The notes beneath the pieces were generated by a model. That model made no database searches and had not been told where the DNA came from. It saw nothing but the letters and a program-made list of their open reading frames with translations. The translations under genes and the position numbers were made by a program. A DNA stretch of 64,000 bases from Eledone cirrhosa (Eukaryota), in NCBI GenBank assembly GCA_964016885.1, contig OZ024744.1, forward strand, positions 25,730,001 through 25,794,000, read 5' to 3'. This document shows, piece by piece, positions 1 through 64,000 of the stretch; within the stretch, counting starts at the first letter, position 1; each line of letters starts with the position of its first letter.

Positions 1-199
1 GGTTGTTAGTGGTTGTTAGTAGTTGTTAGTGGTGGTTAGTATTTGTTAACGTTTGATAATGGTTGGTAGTGGTTGTTAGTGGTTGTTAGTAGTTGTTAGT
101 GGTTGTTAGTGGTTGTTAGTGGTTGTTATTGGTTGTTAGTGGTTGTTAGTGGTTGTTAGTGGTTGTTAGATGTTGTTAGTGGTTGTTAGTGGTTGTTAG

Positions 200-21100: not shown

Positions 21101-22080
21101 TAGCGGTTGTTAGTGGCTGTTAGTGTTGTTAGTGGCTGTTAGTGGTTGTTAGTGATTGTTAGCGGTTGTTAGTGGTTCTTGGTGTTGTTAGTGGTTGTTA
21201 GTGGTTGTTACTGGTTGTTAGTAGTTGTTACAGCTTGGTAGTGGTTGTTAGTGGATTGTTAGTGGTTGTTAGTTGTTGTTAGTGGTTGTTAGTGGTTGTT
21301 AGTGGTTGTTAGTGGTTGCTAGTAGTTGTTAGTGGTTGTTATTGGTTGTTAGTGGTTGTTCGTGGTTTTTAATAGTTGTTCGTGATTGTTAGTGGTTGTT
21401 AGTGGTTGTTAGTGGTTGTTAGTGGTTCTTAGTTGTTGTTAGTGGTTGTTAGTGGTTGTTAGTGGTTGTTAATATTTGTTAATGTTTGATAATCGTTGTT
21501 AATGGTTGTTAGTGGTTGTTAGTGGTTGTTAGTGGTTGTTAGTGGATGTTAGTGTATGTTAGTGGATGTTAGTAGTTGTTAATGGTTGTTAGTGGTTGAT
21601 AGTGGTTGTTGTTGGTTGTTAGTGGTTGTTAGTGATTGTCAGTGGTTGTTAGTTGTTGTTAGTAATTGTTATTGGTCGTTAGTGGTTGTTAATGTTTGTT
21701 AGTAGTTGTTAGTAGTTGTTAGTGGTTGTTAGTGTTTGTTAGTGGTTGTTAGTAGTTGTTAGTGGTTGTTAGTGGTTGTTAGTAATTGTTATTGGTCGTT
21801 AGTGGTTGTTAATTGTTGTTAGTATTTGTTAGTGGTTGTTAGTGGTTGTTAGTGGTTGTTAGTTGTTGTTACTAGTTGTTAGTGGTTGTTAGTGGTTGTT
21901 TGTGGTTGTTAGTGTTGTTAGTGGTTGTTAGTGGTTGTTAGTGGTTGTTAGTGGATGGTAGTGGTTGTTAGTGGTTGTTAGTGGTTGTTAGTGGTTGTTA
22001 ATGGTTGGAAGTGGTTGTTAGTAGTTGTTAGTGGTTGTTAGTGTTTGTTAGTGGTTGTTAATGGTTGTTAGTAGTTGTTA
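200..22080 (+). repeat. Higher-order repeat (about 6.5-7.7 kb, about 3 copies) within the 10-mer satellite
   Basis: Rare variants recur at fixed offsets: GACGATTAG at 1928/8450/15103 and GTAAG (in AGATGTAAG) at 2131/8653/15306 (offsets 6522, 6653); GAAATGG at 4664/12345/18998; CAGCTTGG at 5921/13672/21231. Boundaries approximate. Confidence 0.9.
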
Positions 22081-25000
22081 GTAGTTGTCAGAGATTGTTA
22101 GTGGTTGTTAGTGGTTGTTAGCAGTTGTTAGTGATTGTTAGTGTTGTTAGTGGTTGTTAGTGGTTGTTAGTAGTTGTTAGTGGTTGTTAGTGTTTGTTAG
22201 TGGTCGTTAGTGGTTGTTAGTGGTTGTTAGCGGTTGTTAGTGTTTGTTAGTGTTGTTAGTGGTTGTTAGTGGTTGTTAGTAGTTGTTAGAGGTAGTTAAT
22301 GGTGGTTAGTGGTTGTTAGTGGTTGTTAGTGGTTTTTAGTGGTTGTTAGTAGTTGTTAGTAGTTGTTAGAGGTTGTTAGTGATTGTTAGTGGTTGTTAAT
22401 GATTATTAGTAGTTGTTCGTGGTTGTTAGTGGTTGTTAGTAGTTGTTAGTGGTTGTTAGTGGTTGTTATTGATTGTCAGCGGTTGTTAGTGGTTGTTAGT
22501 AATTGTTATTGGTCGTTAGTGGTTGTTAATGTTTGTTAGTAGTTGTTAGTGGTTGTTAGTGGTTGTTAGTGGTTGTTAGTAGTTGTTAGAGGTTGTTAGT
22601 CGTGGTTAGTGGTTGTTAGTGGTTGTTAGTGGTTTTTAGTGGTTGTTAGTAGTTGTTAGTAGTTGTTAGAGGTTGTTAGTGGTTGTTAGTGGTTGTTAGC
22701 GGTTGTTAGTGATTGTTAGTGTTGTTAGTGGTTGTTAGTGACTGCTTGTTAGTAGTTGTTAGTAGTTGTTAGAGGTTGTTAGTGGTTGTTAGTGGTTGTT
22801 AGTGGCTGTTAGAGGTTGTTAGTGGTTTTTAGTAGTTGTTAGTGGCTGTTAGTAATTGTTAGTGGTTGTTAGTAGTTGTTAATGATTATTAGTAGTTGTT
22901 CGTGGTTGTTAGTGGTTGTTAGTGGTTGTTAGTGGTTGTTAGTGGTTGTTAGTGGTTGTTAGTAGTTGTTAGTGGTTGTTAGTGGATGTTATTGATTGTC
23001 AGCGGTTGTCAGTGGTTGTTAGTAATTGTTATTAGTCGTTAGTGGTTGTTAATTTTTCTTAGTAGTTGTTAGTGGTTGTTAGTGGTTGTTAGTGGTTGTT
23101 AGTGGTTGTTAGTAGTTGTTAGTGATTGTTAGTGGTTGTTAGTGGGTGTTAGTGGTTGGTAGTGATTGGTAGTGGTTGTTAGTGTTGTTAGTGGTTGTTA
23201 GTGGTTGTTATTAGTTGTTAGTGGTTGTTACTGGTTGTTAGTGGTTGTTAGTGTTTGTTAGTGGTTGTGAGTGGTTGTTAGTGGATGTTACTCGTTGTTA
23301 GTGGTTGTTAGTGGTTGTTAGTGATTATTAGTTGTTGTTAATGTTTGTTAATTGTTGTTAGCGGTTGTTAGTGGTTGTTAGTGGTTGTTAGTGTTTGTTA
23401 GTGGTTGTTAGTGGTTGTTAGTAGTTGTTAGTGATTGTTAGTGGTTGTTAGTGGTTGTTTGTGGTTGTTAATGTGTGTTAGTGGTTGTTAGTAGTTGTTA
23501 GTGGTTGTTTGTGGTTGTTAGTGGTTCTAGTGTTGTTAGTGCTTGTTAGTGGTTGTTAGTGGTTGTTAGTGGTTGTTAGTGGTTGTTAGTGGTAGTTAGC
23601 GGTTGTTAGTGGTTGTTAGTGTTGTTAGTGGTTGTTAGTGGTTGTTAGTAGTTGTTAGTGGTTGTTAGTAGTTGTTAGTGGTTGTTAGTGTTTGTTAGTA
23701 GTTGTTAGTGGTTGTTAGTAGTTGTTAGTGGTTGTTAGTAATTGATATTGGTCGTAAGTGGTTGTTAATGGTTGTTAGTAGTGGTTAGTGGTTGTTAGTG
23801 GTCGTTAGTGATTGTTAGTGGTTGTTAGTGGTTGTTAGTAGTTGTCAGTGGTTGTTAGTGTTTGTTAGTGGTTGTTAGTGGTTGTTTGTGGTTGTTAGTG
23901 GTTATTATTGGTTGTTAGTAGTTGTTAGTGGTTGTTAGTGTTTGTTAGTGGTTGTTAGTAATTGTTATTGGTCGTTAGGGGTTGATAATGGTTGTTAGTA
24001 GTTGTTAGTGGTTGTTAGTGGTTGTTAGTAATTGTTATTGGTCGTTAGTGGTTGTTAATTGTTGTTAGTATTTGTTAGTGGTTGTTAGTGGTTGTTAGTG
24101 GTTGTTAGTTGTTGTTAGTAGTTGTTAGTGGTTGTTAGTGGTTGTTAGTGGTTGTTAGTGGTTGTTAATGGTTGGAAGTGGTTGTTAGTAGTTGTTAGTG
24201 ATTGTTATTGGTTGTTCGTGGTTGTTAGTGGTTGTTAGTGGTTGTTAGTGTTGTGAGTGGTTGTTAGTGGTTGTTAGTGGTTGTTAGTGGTTGTTAATGG
24301 CTGCTAGTGGTTGTTAGTGCTTGTTAGTAGTTGTTAGTGATTGCTAGGGTTTGTTAGTGGTTGTTAGTGGTTGGTAGTGATTGGTAGTGGTTGTTAGTGT
24401 TGTTAGTGGTTGTTAGTGGTTGTTATTAGTTGTTAGTGGTTGTTAGTGGTTGTTAGTGGTTGTTAGTGGTTGTTAGTGGTTGTGAGTGGTTGTTAGTGGA
24501 TGTTAATCGTTGTTAGTGGTTGTTAGTGGTTGTTAGTGATTGTTAATGGTTATAAATGTTTGTTAGTAGTTGTTAGTGGTTGTTAATGTTTGTCAGTGTT
24601 TGTTAGTGGTTGTTAGTGGTTGATCGTGTTTGTTAGTGGTTGCTAGTGGTTGTTAGTGGATGTTAATCGTTGTTAGTGGTTTTTAGTAGTTGTTAGTGGT
24701 TGGTAGTGATTGTTAGTGTTGTTAGTGGTTGTAGTGGTTGTTAGTAGTTGTTAGTGGTTGTTAGTGGTTGTTAATGTTTGTTAGTGCTTGTTAGTGTTTG
24801 TTAGTGGTTGTTAGTGGTTGTTAGTAGTTGTTAGAGATTGTTAGTGGTTGTTAGTGGTTGTTAGCGGTTGTTAGTGATTGTTAGTGTTGTTAGTGGTTGT
24901 TAGTGACTGCTTGTTAGTAGTTGTTAGTAGTTGTTAGAGGTTGTTAGTGGTTGTTAGTGGTTGTTAGTGGCTGTTAGAGGTTGTTAGTGGTTTTTAGTAG

Positions 25001-28000
25001 TTGTTAGTGGTTGTTAGTGGTTGTTAATGATTATTAGTAGTTGTTCGTGGTTGTTAGTGGTTGTTACTGGTTGTTAGTGGTTGTTAGTGGTTGTTAGTGG
25101 TTGTTAGTAGTTGTTAGTGGTTGTTAGTGGTTGTTATTGATTGTCAGCGGTTGTTAGTGGTTGTTAGTAATTGTTATTGGTGGTTAGTGGTTGTTAATGT
25201 TTGTTAGTAGTTGTTAGTGGTTGTTAGTGGTTGTTAATGGTTGTTAGTGGTTGTTAGTAGTTATTAGTGATTGTTAGTGGTTGTTAGTGGGTGTTAGTGG
25301 TTGGTAGTGATTGGTAGTGGTTGTTAGTGTTGTTAGTGGTTGTTAGTGGTTGTTATTAGTTGTTAGTGGTTGTTACTGGTTGTTAGTGGTTGTTAGTGAT
25401 TGTTAGTGGTTGTGAGTGGTTGTTAGTGGATGTTACTCGTTGTTAGTGGTTGTTAGTGGTTGTTAGTGATTATTAGTGGTTGTTAATGTTTGTTAATTGT
25501 TGCTAGTGGTTGTTAATGGTTGTTAGTGGTTGTTAGTGGTCGTTAGTAATTGTTATTGGTCGTTAGTTGTCGTTAATGGTTGTTAGAAGTTGTTAGTGGT
25601 TGTTAGTGGTTGTTAGTGGTTGTTAGTGTTTGTTAGTGGTTGTTAGTGGTTGTTAGTAGTTGTTAGTGATTGTTAGTGGTTGTTAGTGGTTGTTTGTGGT
25701 CGTTAATGTTTGTTAGTGGTTGTTAGTAGTTGTTAGTGGTTGTTTGTGGTTGTTAGTGGTTGTTAGTGGTTGTTAGTGGTTCTAGTGTTGTTAGTGCTTG
25801 ATAGTGGTTGTTAGTGGTTGTTAGTGGTTGTTAGTGGTTGATAGTGGTTGTTAGCGGTTGTTAGTGGTTGTTAGTGTTGTTAGTGGTTGTTAGTGGTTGT
25901 TAGTAGTTGTTAGTGGTTGTTAGTAGTTGTTAGTGGTTGTTAGTGGTTGTTAGTAGTTGTTAGTGGTTGTTAGTAGTTGTTAGTGGTTGTTAGTAATTGT
26001 TATTGGTCGTTAGTGGTTGTTAATGTTTGTTAGTAGTGGTTAGTGGTTGTTAGTGGTCGTTAGTGATTGTTAGTGGTTGTTAGTGGTTGTTAGTAGTTGT
26101 CAGTGGTTGTTAGTGTTTGTTAGTGGTTGTTAATGGTTGTTTGTGGTTGTTAATGGTTATTATTGGTTGTTAGTAGTTGTTAGTGGTTGTTAGTGGTTGT
26201 TTGTGGTTGTTAGTAATTGTTATTGGTCGTTAGGGGTTGTTAATGGTTGTTAGTAGTTGTTAGTGGTTGTTAGTGGTTGTTAGTAATTGTTATTGGTCGT
26301 TAGTGGTTGTTAATTGTTGTTAGTATTTGTTAGTGGTTGTTAGTGGTTGTTAGTGGTTGTTAGTTGTTGTTAGTAGTTGTTAGTGGTTGTTAGTGGTTGT
26401 TAGTGGTTGTTAGTGTTGTTAGTGGTTGTTAGTGGTTGTTAGTGGTTGTTAGTGGATGTTAGTGGTTGTTAGTGGTTGTTAGTAGTTGTTAGTGGTTGTA
26501 AGTGGTTGTTTGTGGTTGTTAATGGTTGGAAGTGGTTGTTAGTAGTTGTTAGTGATTGTTATTGGTTGTTAGTGGTTGTTAGTGGTTGTTAGTGGTTGTT
26601 AGTGTTGTTAGTGGTTGTTAGTGGTTGTTAGTGGTTGTTAGTGGTTGTTAGTGGTTGTTAGTGGCTGCTAGTGGTTGTTAGTGGTTGTTAGTAGTTGTTA
26701 GTGATTGCTAGTGTTTGTTAGTGGTTGTTAGTGGTTGTTAGTGGTTGTTAGTGGTTGTTAGTGGTTGTTAGTGGTTGTGAGTGGTTGTTAGTGGATGTTA
26801 ATCGTTGTTAGTGGTTGTTAGTGGTTGTTAGTGATTATTAGTGGTTGTTAATGTTTGTTAATTGTTGTTAGTGGTTGTTAGTGGTTGTTAGTGATTGTTA
26901 ATGGTTATAAATGGTTGTTAGTAGTTGTTAGTGGTTGTTAATGTTTGTTAGTGTTTGTTAGTGGTTGTTAGTGGTTGATCGTGTTTGTTAGTGGTTGCTA
27001 GTGGTTGTTAGTGGATGTTAATCGTTGTTAGTGGTTTTTAGTAGTTGTTAGTGGTTGTTAGTAGTTGTTAGTGGTTGTTAGTGGTTTTTAATGATTATTA
27101 GTAGTTGTTCGTGGTTGTTAGTGGTTGTTAGTGGTTGTTAGTGGTTGTTAGTGGTTGTTAGTGGTTGTTATTGATTGTCAGTGGTTGTTAGTGGTTGTTA
27201 GTAATTGTTATTGGTCGTTAGTGGTTGTTAGTGGTTGTTAGTGGTTGTTAGTGGTTGTTAGTGGTTGTTAGTAGTTGTTAGTGATTGTTAGTGGTTGTTA
27301 GTGGGTGTTAGTGGTTGGTAGTGATTGGTAGTGGTTGTTAGTGTTGTTAGTGGTTGTTAGTGGTTTTTATTAGTTGTTAGTGGTTGTTACTGGTTGTTAG
27401 TGGTTGTTAGTGTTTGTTAGTGGTTGTGAGTGGTTGTTAGTGGATGTTACTCGTTGTTAGTGGTTGTTAGTGGTTGTTAGTGATTATTATTGGTTGTTAA
27501 TGTTTGTTAATTGTTGTTAGTGGTTGTTAGTGGTTGTTAGTGGTTGTTAGTGGTCGTTAGTAATTGTTATTGGTCGTTAGTGGTTGTTAATGGTTGTTAG
27601 AAGTTGTTAGTGGTTGTTAGTGGTTGTTAGTGGTTGTTAGTGGTTGTTAGTGGTTGTTAGTAGTTGTTATTGATTGTTAGTGGTTGTTAGTGGTTGTTTG
27701 TGGTTGTTAATGTTTGTTAGTGGTTGTTAGTAGTTGTTAGTGGTTGTTAGTGGTTGTTAGTGGTTGTTAGTGGTTGTTAGTGGTTCTAGTGTTGTTAGTG
27801 GTTGTTAGTGGTTGTTAGTGGTTGTTAGTGGTTGTTAGTGGTTGTTAGCGGTTGTTAGTGGTTGTTAGTGTTGTTAGTGGTTGTTTGTGGCTGTTAGTAG
27901 TTGTTAGTGGTTGTTAGTAGTTGTTAGTGGTTGTTAGTGGTTGTTAGTAGTTGTTAGTGGTTGTTAGTGGTTGTTAGTGGTTGTTAGTATTTGTTATTGG

Positions 28001-28148
28001 TCGTTAGTTGTTGTTAATGGTTGTTAGTAGTGGTTAGTGGTTGTTAGTGGTCGTTAGTGATTGTTAGTGGTTGTTAGTGGTTGTCAATAGTTGTCAGTGG
28101 TTGTTAGTGTTTGTTAGTGGTTGTTAGTGGTTGTTTGTGGTTGTTAAT
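22080..28148 (+). repeat. Junction-proximal sub-array of the 10-mer with a looser 2.0-2.4 kb higher-order period
   Basis: ACTGCTTG at 22741/24906; CTCG (in TTACTCGTT) at 23291/25436/27450; TATAAATG at 24551/26906. These markers were not seen in 1-22000. Confidence 0.75.
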
Positions 28149-28178
28149 ATCTCCCTACTAACACTCTCTCCCCTATAT
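28035..28178 (+). repeat. Direct repeat copy 1 (144 bp): about 11 10-mer units joined to one 28-mer unit
   Basis: Matches 32927-33070 at offset 4892 with 2 mismatches (28042 T/32934 C; 28085 C/32977 T), including the junction GGTTGTTAATATCTCCCTACTAACACTCTCTCCCCTATAT. Confidence 0.93.
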
Positions 28179-28575
28179 ATTGGTCACTCTGTGACAGTTT
28201 TGCAGTCGAGGGCGTAGCAGTATTAGTTCTTGGCTCCCCTCCCTACTCACCACCATCGGCACAGCGTTGGTTACCCGCAGGTTTGAGCATCGCGAGCCGG
28301 AATGGCTCTTCCAACACCTCTCCCTCACCATGTTCCGGGGGAAACGCCTTCTCTATTCTGTCCGCCGGGGCAATGGGACGCCATTTGCTCATAATAGTGA
28401 GAGATGGGGAGGGCGGGAGAGACGGAGTGGGAATTTGGTTCTTCTGTGTTCGAAGACTATTTTCTTACCAATTAATAACTGATACGAGGCTTGTTGTAAT
28501 GAGAGATATTACTTTTATTTGGGGGCAGGCGCGAGGGTAGAGTGTTTGAAGCACTAACATTTGGTTTCCTTAACA
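28179..28575. other. Unique CpG-rich stretch, possible promoter/first-exon region
   Basis: High-complexity sequence with many CpGs (e.g. ATCGCGAGCCGG, TCCGCCGG, GGCGCGAG) compared with the CpG-poor arrays; GC-box-like GGGCGGG at 28411-28417. Function is inferred only. Confidence 0.45.
28243..28392 (-). CDS. Candidate short ORF/first coding exon (49 aa, MSKWRPIAPADRIEKAFPPEHGEGEVLEEPFRLAMLKPAGNQRCADGGE) with a G|GTGAGT donor at 28250-28245
   Basis: Hand translation: ATG at 28392, TAG at 28245-28243, consensus 5' splice donor just before the stop. Not in the supplied ORF track (shorter than the ORFs listed). No homology established. Confidence 0.2.
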   Translation of the reverse strand: MSKWRPIAPADRIEKAFPPEHGEGEVLEEPFRLAMLKPAGNQRCADGGE

Positions 28576-28970
28576 AGTTAGAAACAAAACAAACAAACAA
28601 ACAAAAAGAAAAACGAAATAAAAAATAAAATAAATAAAAATAAAAAAGTAAAGAATAAGGAATAAGAATAAAGGAAAAAAAATCATGAAACGATAGAAAA
28701 AGAAGAAAACAATGTCAAATGCAAAAGTGTAAAAGGAAGAAAAAAGAAAGATAGAAAGAGAGAAATAAATAAAGATAGAAAGGGAGAGAAAGAAAGAAAG
28801 ACAGAAAGAGAGGAAGAAAGAGAGAAAGAGAGGAAGAGAGAAAGAGAGAAATGAATAAATGAATAAATAAAGAGAAAAAGAAAGAAAGAGACAAAGCGGG
28901 GAAGAAAAGAAGGGGTAAAAGAGAAAACAAAGTGAAAGAAAATGTTATTAGCTGCAGAAGAAGCAATGAA
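28576..28970 (+). repeat. A-rich/GA-rich low-complexity purine tract (AAAC, AAAT, AAAG, AG motifs)
   Basis: Direct reading; explains the spurious F/L/S-rich ORF 28715-28966(-). Confidence 0.85.
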
Positions 28971-28980
28971 GCGTGATGGG

Positions 28981-29195
28981 TCTCTCTCTCTGGTGATTTT
29001 CTCTCTCTCTCTCTACTGATAGTCCTCTCTCTCTCTCTCTACTGCATGTCCTGTCTCTCTCTCTCCCTCTCTACTGATTGTCCTCTCTCTCCCTCTCTAC
29101 TGATTGTCCTCTCTCTCTCTCTCACTCTTTCTACTAATTGTTCCCCCTCTCTCTCTCTCTACTGATTGTCCCCTCTCTCTCTATCTCTACTGATT

Positions 29196-29238
<43 letters not shown>

Positions 29239-29480
29239 CGATTGTCCTGTCTCTCTCTCTCTCCTTCTCTACTGATTGTTCTCTCTCTCTAATGATTGTC
29301 CTCTCTCACTCTCTCTCTCTACTGCATGTGCTGTCTCTCTCTCTATCTCTATCTCTCACTCTCTACTGATTGTCCTCTCTCTCTCTCTCTACTGATTGTC
29401 CTCTCTCTCTCTCTCTCTCTACTGATTGTCCTCTCTCTCTCTCTCTACTGATTGCCCTCTCTCTCTCTCTACTGATTGTC

Positions 29481-29524
<44 letters not shown>

Positions 29525-29839
29525 ACTAATTGTTCCCCCCCCCCCTCTCTCTCTCTCTCTCTACTGATTGTCCTATCTCTATCTTTATCTCTACTGATTG
29601 TCCACTCTCTCTCTCTACCGATTGTCCTGTCTCTCTCTCTCTCCCTCTCTACTGATTGTTCTCTCTCTCTAATGATTGTCCTCTCTCACTCTCTCTCTCT
29701 ACTGCATGTGCTGTCTCTCTCTCTCTCGACTGATTGTCCTCTCTCTCTCTCTCTCTCTCTCTCGACTGATTGTCCTCTCTCTCTCTCTCTCTCTCTCTAC
29801 TGATTGTCCTGTTTCTCTCTCTCTCCCTCTCTACTGATT

Positions 29840-29930
<91 letters not shown>

Positions 29931-30070
29931 ACTGATTGTCCTGTTTCTCTCTCTCTCCTGATGGCCTGTCTCTCTCCCTCTCTACTTGTTGTCCTCTCTC
30001 TTTCTCTCTACTGATTTCCTGTCTCTCTCTCTCTCTACTGATTGACCTCTCTCTCTCTCTCTCTACTGAT
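28981..30070 (+). repeat. Compound minisatellite: CTACTGATTGTC core plus variable (CT)n, roughly 35 units
   Basis: Repeated ACTGATTGTC cores separated by CT runs of variable length. Internal ~380-bp duplication (ACCGATTGTC...AATGATTGTC...ACTGCATGTGC starting at 29237 and 29617). Confidence 0.93.
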
Positions 30071-30320
30071 TAACGAATGGCGGATACGGTGAAATAAATA
30101 ATGCACTGCTTTAAACATTGGCTGTTTATTTTGAGCAACGACCAAAAATACAGCTTATGACATGAGTGCGCATGAGTGCTTATCCAATAGAGCAACAGCA
30201 CACTTTGATAACCACAGACCATCATAGCGGCTAAGTAACAATTATAAAGGAATGCTAAAAACTCTTCAACCGATAGAACAGACATATATAGGAAGAGAAG
30301 AACAACATTAAGAAAACGAT
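30071..30320. other. Short unique AT-rich spacer, no recognisable product
   Basis: Non-repetitive apart from CATGAGTGC x2 (30161-30179). ORF 30070-30285(-) has no recognisable motif. Confidence 0.5.
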
Positions 30321-30324
30321 AAGA

Positions 30325-30351
30325 GGGGGGGGGGGGTGAGGGGGGGGGGGG
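30325..30351 (+). repeat. G12-TGA-G12 homopolymer pair, potential G-quadruplex
   Basis: Direct reading of two 12-G runs; G4 potential is inferred from run length. Confidence 0.75.
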
Positions 30352-30371
30352 AGACGAAGAATGATAATAAG

Positions 30372-30830
30372 AAGAACAACAACAACATTAACAACAACAA
30401 CAGCAAGAGCAACAACAACAACAGCAAGAGCAACAACAACATCAGCTACAGTAACAACAACAGTAACAGCAACAACAACAACAACATCAGCAACAGCAAC
30501 AGTAACAACAACAACATCAACAGCAACAACAACACCACCACCACCACCAACAACAACAACAGCAACAGCAGCAACAACAACAACAACAAGAGTAACAACA
30601 ACAACAAAACCACCACTATCACCACCAACAACAACAACAACAGTGACAGCAACACCACCGCCAACATCAACAACAACAACAGCAACACCACCACCAACAC
30701 CGCCCCCTACACCAGCAGCAACAACAACAACAACAGTAACAACAACAAAAGCAACACCACCACCACCACTACCACCACAGCAGCAACAACAACAACAGTA
30801 ACAACAACAACAACAGCCGCAGCAGCAATA
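30372..30830 (+). repeat. Imperfect trinucleotide microsatellite (AAC)n with AGC/ACC/AGT interruptions
   Basis: Direct reading; produces the poly-N, poly-T and poly-L/V ORFs in three frames. Confidence 0.95.
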
Positions 30831-30981
30831 GTTGACAATAAGATATTGAGAATTGTGTTAAATACTTTAAAATGTAAAAAGTTTCTCTTTTACTGGACAC
30901 TGGAAATATTGTTGAGGTGTATGTGTTGAGTAGAAGAAGGAGTAGATGAGGTTTAAGGAGGGGAGAGGAGGAGGAGAAGTG

Positions 30982-32926
30982 TATCTCTTTCGCACTCTCC
31001 TATATCTCCTACTATCTCTCTCTCCCCTATATCTTCCTACTAACTCCCCCTCTCCCCTATATCTCCCTACTAACTCATTCTCTCCCTATATCTCCCTACT
31101 AACTCTCTCTCCCCTATATCTCCCTACTAACTCTCTCTCCACTATATCTCCTTACTAACTCTCTCCCCTATATCTCCCTACTAAATCTCTCTCCCCTATA
31201 TCTCCCTACTAACTCTCTCTCTCCCTATATCTCCTACTAACTCTCTCTCCTCTATATCTCCCTACAAACTCTCTCTCTCACCTATATCTCCCTACTAAAT
31301 CTCTCTCCCCTATATCTCCCTACTAACTCTCTCTCCCCTATATCTCCCTACTAAATCTCTCTCCCCTATATCTCCCTACTAAATCTCTCTCCCCTATATC
31401 TTCCTACTAACTCTCTCTCCCCTATATCTCCCTACTAACACTCTCTCCCCTATATCTCCCTACTAACTCTCTCTCCCCTATATCTCCCTACTAACTCTCT
31501 CTCACCTATATCTCCCTACTAACTCTCTCTCTCCCCTATATCTCCCTACTAACGCTCTCCCCACTATATCTCCCTACTAACTCTCTCTCCACTATATCTC
31601 CCTACTAACACTCTCTTCCCTACATCTTCCTACTAACTCTCTCTCCCCTATATCACCCTACTAACTCTCCCTCTCCCCTATATCTCCCTACTAACTCTCT
31701 CTCTCCCTATATCTCCCTACTAACTCTCTCTCTCCCTATATCTCCCTACTAACTCTCTCTCTCCACTATATCTCCTTACTAACTCTCTCTCCCCTATATC
31801 TCCCAACTAACTCTCTCTCCCCTATATCTCCCTACTAACTCCCTCTCCCCTATATCTCCCAACTAACTCTCTCTCCCCTATATCTCCCTACTACTCTCTC
31901 TCCCCTATATCTCCCTACTAACTCTCTCTCTCCCCTATATCTCCCTACTAACTCTCTCTCTCCCCTATATCTCCCTACTAACTCTCTCTCTCCCCTATAT
32001 CTCCCTATTAACTCTCTCTCCACTATATCTCCTACTAACTCTCTCTCCCCTATATCTCCCTACTAACTCTCTCTCTCCCCTATATCTCCCTACTAACTCT
32101 CTCTCTCTCCCCTATATCTCCCTACTAACTCTCTCTCCACTATATCTCCCTACTAACTCTCTCTCCCCTATATCTCCCTACTAACTCTCTCTCTCCCCTA
32201 TATCTACCTACTAACGCTCTCTCCACTATATCTCCCTACTAACTCTCTCTCCCCTATATCTCCCTACTAACTCTCTCTCTCCCCTATATCTACCTACTAA
32301 CGCTCTCTCCACTATATCTCCCTACTAACTCTCTCTCCACTATATCTCCCTACTAACACTCTCTTCCCTACATCTTCCTACTAAATCTCTCTCCCCTATA
32401 TCTCCCTACTAACTCTATCTCCCCTATATCTCACTACTAACTCTCTCTCCCCTATATGTCTCTACTAACTCTCTCTCCCCTTATATCTCCCTACTAACGC
32501 TCTCTCCCTTATATCTCCCTACCTACTCTCTCTCCCCTATATCTCCCTACTAACTTTCTCTCTCCACTATATCTCCTTACTAACTCTCTCCCCTATATCT
32601 CCCTACTAAATCTCTCTCCCCTATATCTCCCTACTAACTCTCTCTCTCCCTATTTCTCCTACTAACTCTCTCTCCCCTATATCTCCCTACAAACTCTCTC
32701 TCTCACCTATATCTCCCTACTAACTCCCTCTCTCCCCTATATGTCCCTACTAAGTTTCTCTCTCCCCTATATCTCCCTACTAACACTCTCTCCCCTATAT
32801 CTCACTACTAACTCCCTCTCTCCCCTATATCTCCCTACTAAGTTTCTCTCTCCCCTCTATCTCCCTCCTAACTCTCTCTCTCCCCTATATCTCCCTACTA
32901 ACTCTCTCTCCCCTATATCTCCCTAC
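30982..32926 (+). repeat. 28-bp C/T-rich satellite, proximal block (about 68 units)
   Basis: Same consensus as the main array, starts with degenerate units at about 30982-31030. Own variants: CTACAAAC at 31262/32687 and CTCTTCCCTACATCTTCC at about 31613/32361. Confidence 0.93.
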
Positions 32927-33070
32927 TAGTGGTCGTTAGTGGTCGTTAGTGATTGTTAGTGGTTGTTAGTGGTTGTTAATAGTTGTCAGTGGTTGTTAGT
33001 GTTTGTTAGTGGTTGTTAGTGGTTGTTTGTGGTTGTTAATATCTCCCTACTAACACTCTCTCCCCTATAT
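32927..33070 (+). repeat. Direct repeat copy 2 (144 bp): 10-mer island (32927-33040) embedded in the 28-mer array plus junction unit
   Basis: Same variant order as 28035-28178 (GGTCG, GATTG, AATAGTTGTCAG, GTTTG, TTTGTGG, AATATCTCCC). Confidence 0.93.
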
Positions 33071-36000
33071 CTCCCTACTAACTCTCTCCCCTATATCTCC
33101 CTACTAACTCTCTCTCTCCTATATCTCCCTACTAACTCTCTCTCCCCTATATCTCCCTACTAACTCTCTCTCCCCTATATCTCCCTACTAAATCTCTCTA
33201 CCCTATATCTCCCTACTAACTCTCTCTCCTCTATATCTACATACTAACTCTCTTTCCCCTATATATCCCTACCTACTCTCTCTACCCTATATCTCCCTAC
33301 TAACTCTCTCTCACCTATATCTCCCTACTAACTCTCTCTCCCCTATATCTTCCTACTAACTCTCTCTCCCCTATATCTCCCTACTAACACTCTCTCCACT
33401 ATATCTATCTACTAACTCTCTCTCCCCTATATCTCCCTACTAACTCTCTCTCCTCTATATCTCCGTACCAACACTCTCTCACCTATATCCCCAACTAACT
33501 CTCTCCCCCTATATCTCCCTAGTAACACTATCTCCCCTATATCTCCCTACAAAAAATCTCTCCCCTATATCTCCCTACTAACTCCCTCTCCCCTATATCT
33601 CCCTACTAACACTCTCTTTCCTATATCTCCCTCCTAACTCTCTCTCTCCTTTATATCTCCCTACTATCCCTCCCTCCCCTTTATCTCCCTACTAACTCTC
33701 TCTTCCCTATATCTCCTTACTAACTCCCTCTCCCCTATATCTCCCTACTAACTCCCTCTACCCTATATCTCCCTACCTACTCTCTCTCTCCTATATCTCC
33801 CTACTAACTCTCTCTCCACTATATCTCCTTACTAACTTTCTCTCTCCTATATCTCCCTACTAACCCTCTCTCTCCCCTATAACTCCCTAGTAACTCTCTC
33901 TCCCCTATATCTCCCTAGTAACACTATCTCCCCTATATCTCCCTACTAATTAATTCTCCCCTATATTTCCCTACTAAGTCTCTCTCCCCTATATCTCCCT
34001 ACTAACTCTCCCTCCCTATATCTCCCAACTAACTCTCTCTCTCCCCTATATCTCTTTACTAAGTCTCTCTCCAATATATCTCCATACTAACTCTCTCTCC
34101 CCTATTTCTCCCTACTAACTCTCTCTCCCTCTATATCTCCCTGCTAACTCTCTCTGTCCCCTATATCTCCCAACTAACTCTCTCTCTCCCCTATATCTCC
34201 CTACTAACTCTCTCTCCCCTATATCTCCCTACTAACTCTCTCCCCTATATCTCCCTACTAACTCTCTCTCCCATATATCTCCCTACTAACTCCCTCTCTT
34301 CCCTATATATCCCTACTAACTCTCACTCTCCCCTATATCTCCCTACTAACACTCTCTCCCGTATATCTCCCTACTAAGTCTCTCTGCCCTATATCTCCCT
34401 ACTAACTCTTTCCTTCCTATATCTCCCTACTAACTCTCTCTCCCCTATATCTCCCTACTAAATCTCTCTCCCCTATATCTCGCTACTAACTCTCTCTCAC
34501 CCCTAAATCTCCCTACTAACTCTCTCTCTCTCCCCTATATCTCCCTACTAACTCTCTCCCCTATATCTACCTACTAACTCTCTCTCCCCTATACTTCCCT
34601 ACTAACTCTCTCTCTCCTATATCTCCCTACTAACTCCCTCTCTCACCTATATCTCCCTACTAAAACTCTCTCCCATATATCTCCCTACTAACACTCTCTC
34701 CCCTATGTCTTCTTCCTAAATCTCTCTCCCCTATATCTCCCTACTAACACTCTCTCCCCTATATCTCCCTACTAACTCTCTCTCCCCTATATTTCCCTAC
34801 TAAATCTCTCACCCCTATATCTCTCTACTAACATTCTCTCCTCTATATCTCCCTACCAACTCTCCCTCCTCTATATCTCCCTACTAACTCTCTCTCCCCT
34901 ATATCTCCCTACTAACTCTCTCTCCCCTATATCTCCCTACTAACACTCTCTCCCCTATATCTCCTACTAACTTTCTCTCCACTATATCTCCCTACTAACT
35001 CTCTCTCCCCTATATCTCCCTACTAACCCTCTCTCTCCCCTATATCTCCCTAGTAACTCTCTCTCCCCTATATCTCCATAGTAACACTATCTCCCCTATA
35101 TCTCCCTACTAATTAATTCTCCCCTATATCTCCCTACTAACTCTCTCTCCCGTATATCTCCCTACTAAGTCTCTCTCCCCTATATCTCCCTACTAACTCT
35201 CTCTCCCCTATATCTCCCAACTAACTCTCTCTCTCCCCTATATCTCTTTACTAAGTCTCTCTCCACTATATCTCCCTACTAACTCTCTCTCCCCTATATC
35301 TCCCTACTAACTCTCTCTCCCCCTATATCTCCCTGCTAACTCTCTCTCTCCCCTATATCTCCCAACTAACTCTCTCTCTCCCATATATCTCCCTACTAAC
35401 TCCCTCTCTTCCCTATATATCCCTACTAACTCTCACTCTCCCCTATATCTCCCTACTAACACTCTCTCCCGTATATCTCCCTTCTAAGTCTCTCTCCCCT
35501 ATATCTCCCTACTGACTCTTTCGCTCCTATATCCCCCTACTAACTCTCTCTCCCCTATATCTCCCTACTAAATCTCTCTCCCCTATATCTCGCTACTAAC
35601 TCTCTCTCTCCCCTATATGTCCCTACTAACTCTCTCTCACCCCTAAATCTCCCTACTAACTCTCTCTCTCCCCTATATCTCACTACTAACTCTCTCCCCT
35701 ATATCTACCTACTAACTCTCTCTCCCCTATACTTCCCAACTAACTCTCTCTCTCCTATATCTCCCTACTAACTCCCTATCTCCCCTATATCTCCCTACTA
35801 ACACTCTCTCCCCTATATCTCCCTACTAACTCTCTCTCCCCTATATCTCCCTACTAACTCTCTCTCCCCTATATCTCCCTACCTATTCTCTCCCCTATAT
35901 CTACCTACTAACTCCCTCTCTCCTTTATATCTCCCTACCTACTCTCTCTCCCCTATATCTCCCTACCAACTCTCTCTCCCCTATATCTCTCTACTAACTC

Positions 36001-39000
36001 TCTCTCCCCTATATCTCCCTACTAACGCTCTCTCCCCAATATCTCCCTACCTACTCTCTCTCCCCTATATCTCCCTACTAACACTCTGTCCCCTATATCT
36101 ACCTACTAACTCCCTCTCTCCTTTATATCTCCCTACCTACTCTCTCTCCCCTATATCTCCCTACCAACTCTCTCTCCCCTATATCTCTCTACTAACTCTC
36201 TCTCCCCGATATCTCCCTACTAACGCTCTCTCCCCAATATCTCCCTACCTACTCTCTCTCCCCTATATCTCCCTACTAACACTCTCTCCCCTATATCTCC
36301 TACTAAATTTTCTCTCCCCTATATCTCCCTACTAACTCTCTCTCCGCTATATCTCCCTACTAACTCTCTCTCCACTATATCTCCCTACTAACTCTCTCTC
36401 TCCTATATCTCCCAACTAACTCTCTCTCTCCCCTATATCTCCCTACTAACCCTCTCTCTCCTCTATATCTCCCTAGTAACTCTCTCTCCCCTATATCTCC
36501 CTAGTAACATTCTCTCTCCCCTATATCTCCCCCCTATATCAACCAACTAACTCTCTCTCTCCCCTATATCTCCCTACTAACTCTCTCTCCCCTATATCTC
36601 CCTACTAACTCTCTCTCCCATATATCTCCCTACTAACTCCCTCTTTACCCTAAATATCCCTACTAACTCTCTCTCTCCCCTATATCTCCCTACTAACACT
36701 CTCCCCCGTATATCTCCCTACTAACTCTCTCCCCTATATCTCCCTACTAACTCTTTCGCTCCTATATCTCCCTACTAACTCTCTCTCCACTATATCTCCC
36801 TAATAATTCTCTCTCCCCTATATCTCCCTACTAAATCTCTCTCTCCTATATCTCCATTCTAACTCTCTCTCACCCCTAAATCTCCCTACTAAATCTCTCT
36901 CTCCCCTATATCTCCCTACTAACTCTCTCCCGCCTATACTTCCCTACTAACTCTCTCTCTCCTATATCTCCCTACTAACTCTCTCTCCCCTATATCTCCC
37001 TACTAACACTCTCTCCCCTATATCTCCCTTCTAACTCTCTCTCCACTATATCTCCCTACTAAACTCTCTCTCCCCTATATCTCCCTAGTAACTCTCTCTC
37101 CCCTATATCTCCCTAGTAACACTATCTCCCGTATATCTCCCTACTAAGTCTCTCTCCCCTATATCTCCCAACTAACTCTCTCTCCCCTATATCTCCCTAC
37201 TAACTCTCTCTCCCCCCTATATCAACCAACTAACTCTCTCTCTCCCCTATATCTCCCTACTAACTCTCTCTCCCCTATATCTCCCTACTAACTCTCTCTC
37301 CCATATATCTCCCTACTAACTCCCTCTTTACCCTATATATCCCTACTAACTCTCTCTCTCCCCTATATCTCCCTACTAACACTCTCCCCCGTATATCTCC
37401 CTACTAACTCTCTCCCCTATATCTCCCTACTAACTCTTTCGCTCCTATATCTCCCTACTAACTCTCTCTCCACTATATCTCCCTAATAACTCTCTCTCCC
37501 CTATATCTCCCTACTAAATCTCTCTCTCCTATATCACCATTCTAACTCTCTCTCACCCCTAAATCTCCCTACTAACTCTCTCTCTCCCATATATCTCCCT
37601 ACTAACTCTCTCCCGCCTATACTTCCCTACTAACTCTCTCTCTCCTATATCTCCCTACTAACTCTCTCTCCCCTATATCTCCCTACTAACACTCTCTCCC
37701 CTATATCTTCCTACTAAATCTCTCTCTCCCCTATATCTCCCTACTTATTCTCTCCCCCCCCTATATCTCCCTACTAACACTCTCTCCCCTATATCTCCTA
37801 CTAACACTCTCTCCACTATATCTATCTACTAACTCTCTCTCCACTATATCTCCCTACTAACTCTCTCTCCCCTATATCTCCCTACTAACTCTCTCTCCCC
37901 TATATCTCCCTACTAACGCTCTCTCCCCTATATCTCCCTACTAACTCTCTCTCCCCTATATCTCCCTACTAACTCTCTATCCCCTATATCTCCCTACCAA
38001 CTCTCTCTACCCTATATCTCCCTACTAAATCTCTCTCCTCTATATCTACCTACTAACTCTCTCTCCCCTATATCTCCCTACCTACTCTCTCTCCCCTATA
38101 TCTTCCTACTAACTCTCTCTCCCTATATCTCCCTACTAACTATCTCTCCCCCCCTATATCTCCCTACTAACTCTCTCTCCCATATATATCCCTAACTACT
38201 CTCTCTCCCCTATATCTTCCTACTAAATCTCTCTCTCCCCTATATCTCCCTACATATTCTCTCCCCTCCTATATCTCCCTACTAAATCTCTCTCCCCTAT
38301 ATCTCCCTACTAAAACACTCTCCCCTATATCTCCCTACTAACTCCCTCTCTCCTATATCTCCCAACTAACTGTCTCTCTCCCCTATATCTCCCTACTAAC
38401 TCTCTCTCCCCTATATCTCCCTACTAACACTCTCTCCCTTATATCTCCCTGCTAACACTCTCTCTCCCCTATGTCTCCCTACTAACTCTCTCTCTCACCT
38501 ATAGCTCCCTACTAACTCTCTCACCCCTATATCTCCCTACCAACTCTCTCTCCCCTATATCTCCTAACTAACTCCCTCTCTCCCCTATATCTCCCTACTA
38601 ACTCTCTCTCTCCCCTATATCTCCCTACTAACAATCTCTCCCCTATATCTCCCTACTAAATCTCTCTCCCCTATATCTCCCTACTAACTCTCTCACCATA
38701 TATCTACCTACTAACTCTCTCTCCCCTATATCTCCCTACTAACTCTCTCTCCTCTATATCTCCCTACCTACTCTCTCTCTCCTATATCTCCCTACTAACT
38801 CTCTCTCCCCTATATCTCGCTAATAACGCTCTCTCCCCTATATCTCCCTACTAACACTCTCTCCCCTATATCTCCTACTAAATTTTCTCTCCCCTATATC
38901 TCCCTACTAACTCTCTCTCCGCTATATCTCCCTACTAACTCTCTCTCCACTATATCTCCCTACTAACTCTCTCTCTCCTATATTTCCCAACTAACTCTCT

Positions 39001-42000
39001 CTCTCCCCTATATCTCCCTACTAACCCTCTCTCTCCTCTATATCTCCCTAGTAACTCTCTCTCACCTATATCTCCCTAGTAACATTCTCTCTCCCCTATA
39101 TCTCTTTACTAACTCTCTCTCCACTATATCTCCCTACTAACTCTCTCTCCCCTATATCTCCCTACTAACATCTCTCCCCTATATCACCCTACCAACTCTC
39201 CCTCCTCTATATCTCCCTACTAACTCTCTCTCCCCTATATCTCCCTACTAACTCTCTCTCCCGTATATCTCCCTACTACGTCTCTCTCCCCTATATCTCC
39301 CAACTAACTCTCTCTCCCCTATATCTCGCTACTAACTCTCTCTCCACTATATCTCCCTAGTAACTCTCTCTCCCCTATTTCTCCCTACTAACTCTCTCTC
39401 CCCTATATCTCCTTACTAACTCTCTCTCCCCTATATCTCCCTACTAACGCTCTCTCCCCTATATCTCCCTACTAACTCTCTCTCCCCTATATCTCCCTAC
39501 TAACTCTCTATCCCCTATATCTCCCTACCAACTCTCTCTACCCTATATCTCCCTACTAAATCTCTCTCCTCTATATCTACCTACTAACTCTCTCTCCCCT
39601 ATATCTCCCTACCTACTCTCTCTCCCCTATATCTTCCTACTAACTCTCTCTCCCTATATCTCCCTACTAACTATCTCTCCCCCCCTATATCTCCCTACTA
39701 ACTCTCTCTCCCATATATATCCCTAACTACTCTCTCTCCCCTATATCTTCCTACTAAATCTCTCTCTCCCCTATATCTCCCTACATATTCTCTCCCCTCC
39801 TATATCTCCCTACTAAATCTCTCTCCCCTATATCTCCCTACTAACACTCTCTCCCCTATATCTCCCTACTAACTCTCTCTCCCATATATCTCCCTACTAA
39901 CTCCCTCTTTACCCTAAATATCCCTACTAACTCTCTCCCCTATATCTCCCTACTAACTCTTTCGCTCCTATATCTCCCTACTAACTCTCTCTCCACTATA
40001 TCTCCCTAATAATTCTCTCTCCCCTATATCTCCCTACTAAATCTCTCTCTCCTATATCTCCATTCTAACTCTCTCTCACCCCTAAATCTCCCTACTAACT
40101 CTCTCTCTCTCCCCTATATCTCCCTACTAACTCTCTCCCGCCTATACTTCCGTACTAACTCTCTCTCTCCTATATCTCCCTACTAACTCTCTCTCCCCTA
40201 TATCTCCCTACTAACACTCTCTCCCCGACATCTCCCTTCTAACTCTCTCTCCACTATATCTCCCTACTAACCTCTCTCTCCCCTATATCTCCCTAGTAAC
40301 TCTCTCTCCCCTATATCTCCCTAGTAACACTATCTCCCGTATATCTCCCTACTAAGTCTCTCTCCCCTATATCTCCCAACTAACTCTCTCTCCCCTATAT
40401 CTCCCTACTAACTCTCTCTCCCCCCTATATCAACCAACTAACTCTCTCTCTCCCCTATATCTCCCTACTAACTCTCTCTCCCCTATATCTCCCTACTAAC
40501 TCTCTCTCCCATATATCTCCCTACTAACTCCCTCTTTACCCTATATATCCCTACTAACTCTCTCTCTCCCCTATATCTCCCTACTAACACTCTCCCCCGT
40601 ATATCTCCCTACTAACTCTCTCCCCTATATCTCCCTACTAACTCTTTCGCTCCTATATCTCCCTACTAACTCTCTCTCCACTATATCTCCCTAATAACTC
40701 TCTCTCCCCTATATCTCCCTACTAAATCTCTCTCTCCTATATCTCCATTATAACTCTCTCTCACCCCTAAATATCCCTACTAACTCTCTCTCTCCTCTAT
40801 ATCTCCCTACTAACTCTCTCTCCCCTATATCTCGCTAATAACGCTCTCTCCTCTATATCTCCCTACTAACTCTCTCTCCCCTATATCTCCCTACTAACAC
40901 TCTCTCCCCTATATCTCCTACTAAATTTTCTCTCCCCTATATCTCCCTACTAACTCTCTCTCCGCTATATCTCCCTACTAACTCTCTCTCCACTATATCT
41001 CCCTACTAACTCTCTCTCTCCTATATTTCCCAACTAACTCTCTCTCGCCCCTATATCTCCCTACTAACCCTCTCTCTCCTCTATATCTCCCTAGTAACTC
41101 TCTCTCACCTATATCTCCCTAGTAACATTCTCTCTCCCCTATATCTCTTTACTAACTCTCTCTCCACTATATCTCCCTACTAACTCTCTCTCCCCTATAT
41201 CTCCCTACTAACATCTCTCCCCTATATCACCCTACCAACTCTCCCTCCTCTATATCTCCCTACTAACTCTCTCTCCCCTATATCTCCCTACTAACTCTCT
41301 CTCCCGTATATCTCCCTACTACGTCTCTCTCCCCTATATCTCCCAACTAACTCTCTCTCTCCCCTATATCTCCCTACTAACCCTCTCTCTCCTCTATATC
41401 TCCCTAGTAACTCTCTCTCCCCTATATCTCCCTAGTAACATTCTCTCTCCCCTATATCTCTTTACTAACTCTCTCTCCACTATATCTCCCTACTAACTCT
41501 CTCTCCCCTATATCTCCCTACTAACATCTCTCCCCTATATCACCCTACCAACTCTCCCTCCTCTATATCTCCCTACTAACATCTCTCCCCAATATCACCC
41601 TACCAACTCTCCCTCCTCTATTTCTCCCTACTAACTCTCTCCCCTATATCTCCCTACTAACTCTCTCTCCCCTATATCTCGCTACTAACTCTCTCTCCAC
41701 TATATCTCCCTAGTAACTCTCTCTCCCCTATTTCTCCCTACTAACTCTCTCTCCCCTATATCTCCTTACTAACTCTCTCTCCCCTATATCTCCCTACTAA
41801 CGCTCTCTCCCCTATATCTCCCTACTAACACTCTCTCCCCTATATCTCCCTACTAACTCTCTATCCCCTATATCTCCCTACCAACTCTCTCTACCCTATA
41901 TCTCCCTACTAAATCTCTCTCCTCTATATCTACCTACTAACTCTCTCTCCCCTATATCTCCCTACCTACTCTCTCTCCCCTATATCTTCCTACTAACTCT

Positions 42001-63000: not shown

Positions 63001-64000
63001 CTCTCCCCTATATCTCCCTACTAACTCTCTCTCCCCTATATCTCCCTACTAACTCTCTCTCCACTATATCTCCCTAGTAACTCTCTCTCCCCTATTTCTC
63101 CCTACTAACTCTCTCTCCCCTATATCTCCCTACTAACTCACTCTCCCCTATATCTCCCTACTAACGCTCTCTCCCCTATATCTCCCTACTAATTCTCTCT
63201 CCCCTATATCTCCCTACTAACTCTCTATCCCCTATATCTCCCTACCAACTCTCTCTACCCTATATCTCCCTACTAAATCTCTCTCCTCTATATCTACCTA
63301 CAAACTCTCTCTCCACTATATCTCCCTACCTACTCTCTCTCCCCTATATCTTCCTACTAACTCTCTCTCCCCTATATCTCCCTACTAACTATCTCTCCCC
63401 CCTATATATCCCTACTAACTCTCTCTCCCACATATATCCCTAACTACTCTCTCTCCCCTATATCTTCCTACTAAATCTCTCTCTCCCCTATATCTCCCTA
63501 CATATTCTCTCCCCTCCTATATCTCCCTACTAAATCTCTCTCCCCTATATGTCCCTACTAACACTCTCTCCCCTATATCTCCCTACTAACTCCCTCTCTC
63601 CTATATCTCCCAACTAACTGTCTCTCTCCCCCATATCTCCCTACTAACTCTCTCTCCCCTATATCTCCCTACTAACACTCTCTCCCTTATATCTCCCTGC
63701 TAACACTCTCTCTCCCCTATGTCTCCCTACTAACTCTCTCTCTCACCTATAGCTCCCTACTAACTCTCTCTCCCCTATATCTCCCAACTAACTCCCTCTC
63801 TCCCCTATATCTCCCTACTAACTCTCTCTCTCCCCTATATCTCCCTACTAACAATCTCTCCCCTATATCTCCCTACTAAGTCTCTCTCCCCTATATCTCC
63901 CTACTAACTCTCTCTCCATATATCTACCTACTAACTCACTCTCCCCTATATCTCCCTACTAACTCTCTCTCCCCTATATCTCCCTACTAACTCTCTCTCC
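33041..64000 (+). repeat. 28-bp tandem satellite, consensus TATATCTCCCTACTAACTCTCTCTCCCC (26-30 bp variants via CT number), about 1,100 units, runs off the right edge
   Basis: TACTAAC recurs every 28 nt (e.g. 37883, 37911); + strand nearly G-free; stop codons recur on both strands. Confidence 0.98.
40800..57000 (+). repeat. Higher-order repeat of about 4.05 kb (about 145 monomers) with a 2.5-kb partial copy in the 28-mer array
   Basis: G of AACTGTCTCTCCCA at 42228/46271/48754/52820 (offsets 4043, 2483, 4066); AGATC at 44141/50718/54784 (offsets 6577, 4066). Boundaries approximate. Confidence 0.85.

What the first reader, a model, noticed from the sequence alone, without database searches (positions are those of the whole stretch)
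28035..33070. The satellite-satellite junction is duplicated, and the two 144-bp copies bracket a 4.75-kb cassette
Seen: the precise 10-mer to 28-mer junction, with about 114 bp of 10-mer and one 28-mer unit, occurs at 28035-28178 and again at 32927-33070 (offset 4892, 2 mismatches). Deleting 4,892 bp gives a clean 10-mer|28-mer fusion. All unique DNA in the window lies between the two copies. Inference: this resembles integration of a circular molecule by single crossover, or a template-switch repair insertion. 144 bp is far longer than usual transposon target-site duplications (about 2-20 bp), and no transposase, RT or terminal inverted repeats are visible. It could be a recombination-mobile cassette that can pop out as a 4.9-kb circle. 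An assembly artefact is possible, although the 2 mismatches argue weakly against it.
Basis: partly seen in the sequence, partly recalled or inferred. Interest (0 to 1): 0.75.

Follow-up and report, generated by a model that had tools for sequence, protein, structure and literature searches.

The report
Repair scar between two satellite arrays
A 144-base join between two neighbouring satellite arrays is present twice, 4.9 kb apart, but the DNA between the copies is likely the old spacer and natural start of one array rather than a mobile cassette, so this is likely an ordinary scar left when broken DNA was repaired by copying short nearby pieces.

Summary
The duplication is real: 144 bp, offset 4,892, 2 mismatches; the junction 26-mer occurs exactly twice in the 3-Gb assembly. 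The copies share one derived base that 8 array paralogues lack, and each has one private change. That makes them true sister copies and argues against misassembly. The 'cassette' reading is not supported. The three non-repeat stretches searched have no second copy in the assembly. 41% of the island is the 28-mer array itself, including what looks like that array's worn natural start. The island's left end abuts an old dispersed repeat lacking about 63 bp. No element ends or coding capacity were seen. Both arrays (140 kb and 69 kb) occur only here. All three new joins carry 2-bp microhomology. Best reading (0.7): two successive break repairs by template switching. The hybrid join formed once, then was copied using homology on one side and microhomology on the other; the order is unresolved. 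This resembles Rsp-like/1.688 hybrid junctions in Drosophila and MMBIR templated insertions. The public runs laid did not hold this locus, so empty alleles and circles are untested. The scan noted similar scars elsewhere in this genome.

The parts
1..28146 (+). 10-mer satellite array (GGTTGTTAGT), right 28 kb of a 140-kb array that starts at window position -111,798; cut off in the middle of a roughly 2-kb higher-order repeat
   Evidence: paralogues at 23786 and 26041 run on as 10-mer at 98% for 200 bp beyond the equivalent point; 37 of 37 genome matches of a 50-mer lie in this array
28035..28178 (+). Copy 1 of the 144-bp repeat: 112 bp of 10-mer (b), junction J with 2-bp microhomology AT, 32 bp of 28-mer (f); private change at 28085
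   Evidence: the 32-bp piece occurs exactly 73 times in the 304 kb
28177..28178 (+). Junction K: 28-mer piece joined to an old dispersed repeat; 2-bp microhomology AT if this copy read like its relatives, with a further imperfect CTCTCC match just upstream
   Evidence: microhomology inferred from 5 relatives that cover the site
28179..28455 (+). Old high-copy dispersed repeat of about 400 bp (SINE-like; family not identified), lacking about 63 bp at its left end
   Evidence: 2,418 candidates, 40 scored, other copies 73-86% identical; full left end in 4 of 18 copies compared with L016
28456..30994 (+). Native spacer: short single-copy stretches between A-rich, TC-minisatellite (28981-30071), G-run and AAC (30375-30815) repeats; open frames only in low-complexity sequence or the short repeat
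   Evidence: single match each for 28452-28575, 30060-30330 and the non-satellite part of 30810-31060
30995..32926 (+). First roughly 69 units of the 28-mer array, beginning with three degenerate units (apparent natural left edge)
   Evidence: unit list; edit cost 2, 3.5, 2.5 for the first three units, then 0
32927..33070 (+). Copy 2 of the 144-bp repeat; entered through junction L (28-mer to 10-mer, 2-bp microhomology TA); private change at 32934
33039..64000 (+). Rest of the 28-mer array; continues to about window 98,300 and fades into a related 51-mer ending near 99,930; young higher-order duplications (99.5-99.9%) start at about 36,500
   Evidence: 167 of 167 genome matches of a 38-mer lie in the fetched region

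Best explanation
The 144-bp repeat is likely a scar of two successive DNA-break repairs by template switching between two neighbouring satellite arrays, and the DNA between the copies is likely the native spacer plus the natural start of the 28-mer array, not an inserted element. Shown: the present order is a-b-f-d-b-f-g (a = 10-mer array, b = its last 112 bp, f = 32 bp of 28-mer, d = island, g = rest of the 28-mer array), with three new joins J (b|f, twice), K (f|d) and L (d|b), each with 2-bp microhomology. Inferred: the ancestor was a-b-c-d-g, where c (the right end of the 10-mer array and whatever followed it) is now lost. J formed once by a microhomology jump and was later copied by a repair that primed on homology at one side and finished by microhomology at the other. 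Two mirror-image orders fit equally well (about half each). Order A: c was deleted with a 32-bp 28-mer patch in the join (J, K); later a break in the 28-mer array used that patch as homology and pulled in 112 bp of 10-mer (L). Order B: 112 bp of 10-mer was first copied into the 28-mer array (L, J); later the 10-mer array's broken end paired with that piece, copied 32 bp past J, let go and joined the old repeat (K), losing c. It likely has no function; it can passively lose the island by recombination.
For: Sister copies with real age: both carry A at piece position 53 where 8 of 8 array paralogues carry G, and each has one private change. The 10-mer array is cut inside a higher-order unit, and copy 1 keeps that unit's left context at 94-97% over 100-200 bp, so b comes from this array end. 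Island stretches have no second copy; both arrays are confined to this locus; no island copy lies in 28 kb left of the 10-mer array. The 28-mer array has one degenerate start, inside the island, and one fading end. K joins a 28-mer piece identical to 72 other current places to a repeat 14-27% diverged from its relatives, so K is young and the repeat is old. Microhomology of 2 bp or more arises in about 7% of random joins between these satellites, so about 0.5% for both J and L. In 2 of 4 settings the first kb after copy 2 ranks 1st of 66 blocks for rare words shared with the island's 28-mer part, and the second kb is in the top 5 in all 4, as expected if the array was continuous across copy 2. 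Precedent: PMC7403614 and PMC8421209 (passages).
Against: The continuity signal is weak. The first kb ranks 4th in one setting and is outside the top 6 in another; the rarity filter penalises recently amplified blocks; a variant-spectrum test ranks it 27th of 69 for the block just before copy 2; BLAST found no uninterrupted paralogue of the site. Microhomologies are only 2 bp, and that at K rests on relatives. The repeat's missing left end is not proof of a cut, because 14 of 18 copies compared also start further in. The templates lie at least 2.8 kb away, beyond the 100 bp described for the yeast events in PMC8421209. No ancestral allele, read or related genome was seen, so the history is reconstructed from one haplotype.
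Confidence: 0.7

Rival explanations
1. Fusion first, island recaptured. A deletion first fused the arrays (a-b-f-g). The island was then copied back in at that join, from a homologue with the old arrangement or from the excised piece, by two template switches (K and L), duplicating 144 bp. This is the first reader's template-switch insertion, with a native rather than foreign insert.
For: It needs the same three joins and two events, and explains the clean fusion on deletion. The continuity tests are weak.
Against: It needs a second template carrying the old arrangement. With a homologue as donor there is no reason for the island's 28-mer end to resemble the DNA just after copy 2, which it modestly does. 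No part of the island's 28-mer stretch is duplicated after copy 2.
Confidence: 0.15
2. Tandem duplication or circle, then trimming. After J and K existed, b-f-d was duplicated head to tail (join L), directly or through a circle, and the second d was then removed by recombination between f and the 28-mer array.
For: L is the type of join that a tandem duplication or circle closure makes; f has 72 other exact copies as partners; circle-mediated duplication is reported (PMC7188851, abstract).
Against: It needs three events or more, and no remnant of a second island or second array start survives.
Confidence: 0.08
3. Assembly artefact: a mis-join or chimeric read duplicated the junction.
For: The region is 210 kb of satellite, and no read support could be obtained.
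Against: The copies differ at 2 sites, each private against 8 paralogues. K and L are non-homologous joins, which overlap-based assembly does not invent (established knowledge). No N was seen in the 264 kb counted or in the 42 kb profiled, which together cover the 304 kb.
Confidence: 0.05
4. A recombination-mobile cassette that uses the 144-bp junction as an attachment site, excises as a 4.9-kb circle and reintegrates.
For: Direct repeats at 98.6% flank the island, and the deletion product is a clean fusion. Satellite circles exist in flies (PMC7403614, passages).
Against: No second copy of the island or of the junction in 3 Gb. No plausible recombinase frame. No terminal inverted repeats among the 25 longest of 39 inverted pairs shown. 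The island carries the array's own edge. Each repeat has its own mutation, which points to long residence.
Confidence: 0.02

Closest known systems
[quoted passage not shown]
   Same: A short block of one satellite sits inside an unrelated one. One junction has microhomology and is shared between copies, and the other end varies. The authors propose that a hybrid join forms once and is then copied through homology of one satellite part, by SDSA with a template switch, FoSTeS/MMBIR or eccDNA.
   Different: There the shared junction is spread over many loci (19 of 31 clusters). Here it has two copies 4.9 kb apart, 2-bp rather than 4-7-bp microhomology, short (10 and 28 bp) units, and an inferred deletion of one array's end.
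MMBIR-type templated insertions, MMB-TI (PMC8421209; 12 of 40 matching passages seen)
   Same: Short copied pieces with microhomology or microhomeology at the borders, several switches in a row, kept as germline variants.
   Different: The yeast events there copy from within 100 bp; here the templates are at least 2.8 kb away. One side of the second copying step is homology-primed.
eccDNA-mediated duplication in the human genome (PMC7188851; abstract and outline only)
   Same: Locally permuted segment order that could be read as circle reintegration.
   Different: There a duplicated fragment is inserted elsewhere; here the island is not duplicated, only 144 bp are.
Integrative elements with attL/attR, and transposons with target-site duplications (recalled, no call)
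   Same: Direct repeats flank a segment, and its loss restores a single site.
   Different: No recombinase or transposase frame, no element ends, no second site, and the segment is native to the locus.

Membership tests
Template-switch repair scar (MMBIR/FoSTeS, aborted SDSA plus microhomology joining) | Inserted piece is a copy of identifiable nearby DNA | tested here: met
   b matches the array end at 2 mismatches and shares a derived base; f matches 72 other places exactly
Template-switch repair scar (MMBIR/FoSTeS, aborted SDSA plus microhomology joining) | Microhomology at the new joins | tested here: met
   2 bp at J and L, chance about 7% each; 2 bp at K inferred from relatives
Template-switch repair scar (MMBIR/FoSTeS, aborted SDSA plus microhomology joining) | Template within about 100 bp, as in the yeast events of PMC8421209 | tested here: not met
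   Nearest 28-mer template for f is 2.8 kb away; b copies are 4,892 bp apart
Template-switch repair scar (MMBIR/FoSTeS, aborted SDSA plus microhomology joining) | Pre-event allele known and pathway dependence shown | not testable with these tools
   No related genome is held, and the runs laid lack the locus
Hybrid satellite junction seeding (Rsp-like/1.688 type) | One shared junction, other end variable | tested here: met
   J twice; K and L different
Hybrid satellite junction seeding (Rsp-like/1.688 type) | Junction spread to distant loci | tested here: not met
   2 exact matches genome-wide, both here; both arrays confined to this locus
Mobile cassette (integrative element or non-autonomous transposon) | Further copies or further target sites in the genome | tested here: not met
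   One match each for three non-repeat stretches; the tool warns that no match does not prove rarity
Mobile cassette (integrative element or non-autonomous transposon) | Recombinase, transposase or RT gene | tested here: not met
   31 stop-to-stop frames of 50 aa or more in 28147-31100, longest 205 aa, the long ones low-complexity; judged by eye and length, no Pfam scan run
Mobile cassette (integrative element or non-autonomous transposon) | Terminal inverted repeats | tested here: inconclusive
   In 28100-31100 the 25 longest of 39 inverted pairs are AG versus TC simple-repeat matches and none starts at 28179; the right end lies in the satellite and was outside the range scanned
Mobile cassette (integrative element or non-autonomous transposon) | Excised circle or empty allele | not testable with these tools
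   4 of 4 runs have zero depth on 28457-28575
Helitron (features recalled) | 3' CTRR preceded by a GC-rich hairpin, no target duplication, dispersed copies | tested here: not met
   CTAG stands at 32925-32928, but the 35 bases before it contain no G; a 144-bp duplication is present; no dispersed copies

The most novel reading that the evidence does not exclude
The hybrid junction acts as a natural attachment site: the 4.9-kb island with its block of 28-mer pops out as a circle and goes back in, so the spacer between two giant satellite arrays switches between present and absent in living animals and its circles reseed the 28-mer array.
Probability: 0.04. Interest if true: 0.55.

Novelty: new member of a known kind. 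Interest (0 to 1): 0.17.

Why it matters
If the best reading holds, it is a tidy base-level record of how two unrelated satellite arrays came to touch and exchange sequence, and how a hybrid join, once made, is copied again. That step was proposed for flies and is seen here at the two-copy stage. It bears on no gene and opens no new question. It would matter more only if circles or empty alleles were shown to be frequent.

Tried and rejected
Public reads. One search gave 5 runs, 2 with a partial share (0.38, 0.20; one sample). Four of the five were laid on 28020-28575. None covers the single-copy part 28457-28575, and depth elsewhere comes from other copies of the repeat and the satellites. 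They say nothing for or against the junctions.

Model 'the 10-mer began inside the 28-mer array and a tandem duplication followed' was rejected: the 10-mer array's left end meets ordinary DNA with no 28-mer and no island copy.

The search for an uninterrupted paralogue of the copy-2 site failed; best hits were 88-92%, the array background. The BLAST resemblance of the island's 28-mer part to the array's far end (96-98 kb) is about 90%, also background. Helitron reading rejected.

The missing left part of the dispersed repeat was not found in the 304 kb; a fragment at -116.9 kb matches its right part. An Rfam scan of 4 loci gave 13 matches, all below gathering score, so the repeat has no family name. 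Four paper searches were run; the listing showed no description of these satellites or this repeat. That is no proof of absence, and no supplements were read. Neither order A nor order B could be favoured from the three variant sites: both need three changes.
Full report
Observation. The window is a 10-mer array (1-28146), a short island, and a 28-mer array (30995-64000) with an 11-unit 10-mer block at 32927-33038. At offset 4,892 the sequence is identical from 28035 to 28178 except at 28042 and 28085. The exact junction 26-mer occurs twice in the 3.0-Gb assembly, both times here, and the reversed control occurs zero times.

Setting. I fetched 140 kb to the left and 100 kb to the right. The 10-mer array is 140 kb long and starts abruptly at window -111,798 after ordinary DNA. 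The 28-mer array runs to about 98,300 and fades into a related 51-mer that ends near 99,930. Both are confined to this place: 37 of 37 matches of a 10-mer pattern and 167 of 167 matches of a 28-mer pattern. Over the 304 kb there are just three switches between the satellites and no inverted units. Young higher-order duplications of about 99.5-99.9% identity fill both arrays but mostly stop short of the junction zone, about 22-36.5 kb.

Are the copies real sisters? Eight other places in the 10-mer array lie within 7 mismatches of the 112-bp piece. All 8 have T, T and G at piece positions 8, 51 and 53. Copy 1 has T, C, A and copy 2 has C, T, A. So the copies share one derived base and each has one of its own. 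The change at position 8 of copy 2 could also be a one-unit stutter at the join. Divergence is 2 of 144 (95% interval 0.2-4.9%), which weakly suggests that the scar is older than the latest array expansions. Paralogues at 23786 and 26041 match the left context of copy 1 at 94-97% and run on as 10-mer where copy 1 turns into 28-mer. The 10-mer array was thus cut inside a higher-order unit, and the duplicated piece belongs to that cut end.

What the island is. Of 4,748 bp, 1,932 are 28-mer array and most of the rest is micro- and minisatellite. The stretches 28452-28575 and 30060-30330 have one candidate each, the window itself. For 30810-31060, 40 of 54 candidates were scored, and in the 150 of 663 rows listed only the self-match covers the non-satellite part. 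The tool warns that no match does not prove rarity. The left end, 28179-28455, is an old dispersed repeat: 2,418 candidates, 40 scored, 73-86% identity. Against one long copy, 4 of 18 others reach the same left end, about 63 bp beyond the point where the window's copy starts; the other 14 start further in. The missing end alone therefore does not prove a cut. The age contrast is stronger: a 32-bp satellite piece identical to 72 other places abuts a repeat about 20% diverged from its family, so that join is young. The 28-mer array begins inside the island with three degenerate units, the usual look of an old array edge (established knowledge). No frame suggests a recombinase, transposase or RT (no Pfam scan), and the long inverted matches are AG against TC repeats. 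The island is best read as the native left flank and start of the 28-mer array.

Joins. Write the present order as a-b-f-d-b-f-g. The new joins are J (b|f, twice), K (f|d) and L (d|b). J has AT and L has TA as microhomology; random joins between the two satellites reach 2 bp or more in 7% of 20,000 trials each. K has AT if this repeat copy read like five relatives, and these also share CTCTCC with the 28-mer just upstream. Since the same jump would hardly be made twice at the same base, J formed once and was copied (inference).

Mechanism. Two two-step histories from an ancestor a-b-c-d-g give the product. In order A, c is deleted with a 32-bp templated patch (J, K), and a later break in the 28-mer array primes on that patch, copies b and joins at L. 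In order B, b is first copied into the 28-mer array (L, J), and a later break lets the 10-mer end pair with it, copy 32 bp past J and join at K. They are mirror images, and the variant sites do not separate them. Both predict that the 28-mer array was continuous across copy 2. Rare shared words support this modestly. The first kb after copy 2 ranks 1st, 1st, 4th and outside the top 6 of 66 blocks in four settings, and the second kb is in the top 5 in all four. A variant-spectrum test did not support it (27th of 69), and no empty-site paralogue was found. The rival in which the arrays fused first and the native island was recaptured stays open at about 0.15.

Reads. The runs found belong to a sample and a species label that lack this locus: zero depth on 28457-28575 in 4 of 4 runs laid. 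Only 28020-28575 was laid. Spanning reads, empty alleles and circles remain untested.

Comparison. It works like the hybrid Rsp-like/1.688 junctions of Drosophila, where a microhomology join is proposed to form once and be copied by homology, with a variable far end (PMC7403614, passages). It fails that case's feature of spread to distant loci. It shares templated pieces and microhomology with MMBIR insertions but not their short range in yeast (PMC8421209, passages). It fails the tests for a mobile cassette and for a Helitron. Earlier notes of this scan describe other template-switch scars and passively duplicated junctions in this genome; these are unchecked leads. None was on file near this window.

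Verdict. Real, well-defined and ordinary: a new example of a known kind of repair scar. Confidence 0.7 in the two-step templated-copy reading, interest 0.17.

Noticed in passing
window -111,798 (L081/L082 region, G000:C28 about 25,618,200): The 140-kb 10-mer array starts abruptly from ordinary DNA with near-consensus units. Both of its ends may therefore be breakpoints, and no worn natural edge is left.
   Followed up: partly
window 76,700-95,000 and 98,280-99,930 (L048-L050): The 28-mer array is mixed with, and ends in, a related 51-mer (with 17-, 64- and 68-bp periods) that shares the TCTCTCTAC core with the island's TC minisatellite; possibly one ancestral motif.
   Followed up: no
window 1-22,000 and 36,500-64,000: Both arrays show layered higher-order duplications (offsets such as 6,522, 6,653, 7,559; 4,043, 4,066, 2,483, 1,071) at 99.5-99.9%, while the junction zone is largely left out.
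   Followed up: partly
L002, L003, L005: Copies of the dispersed repeat carry tandem expansions of about 67-75-bp pieces of the element itself, so this repeat may seed minisatellites.
   Followed up: no
L076-L078 (G000:C28 23.5-24.4 Mb): Three 1-kb samples spread over 0.9 Mb all start with the same other satellite motif, which suggests a megabase array 1.2 Mb to the left.
   Followed up: no
window 28020-28190, runs X1 and X2: A sample that lacks this locus's single-copy DNA still has contigs matching both the 10-mer and the 28-mer at 90%, so both satellites may be older than this arrangement.
   Followed up: no
left flank near window -112,100 to -114,200: AT/AC microsatellite-rich DNA with a repeat motif that I recall from octopus SINEs (recalled, no call); earlier notes also guess an octopus-type genome.
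   Followed up: no
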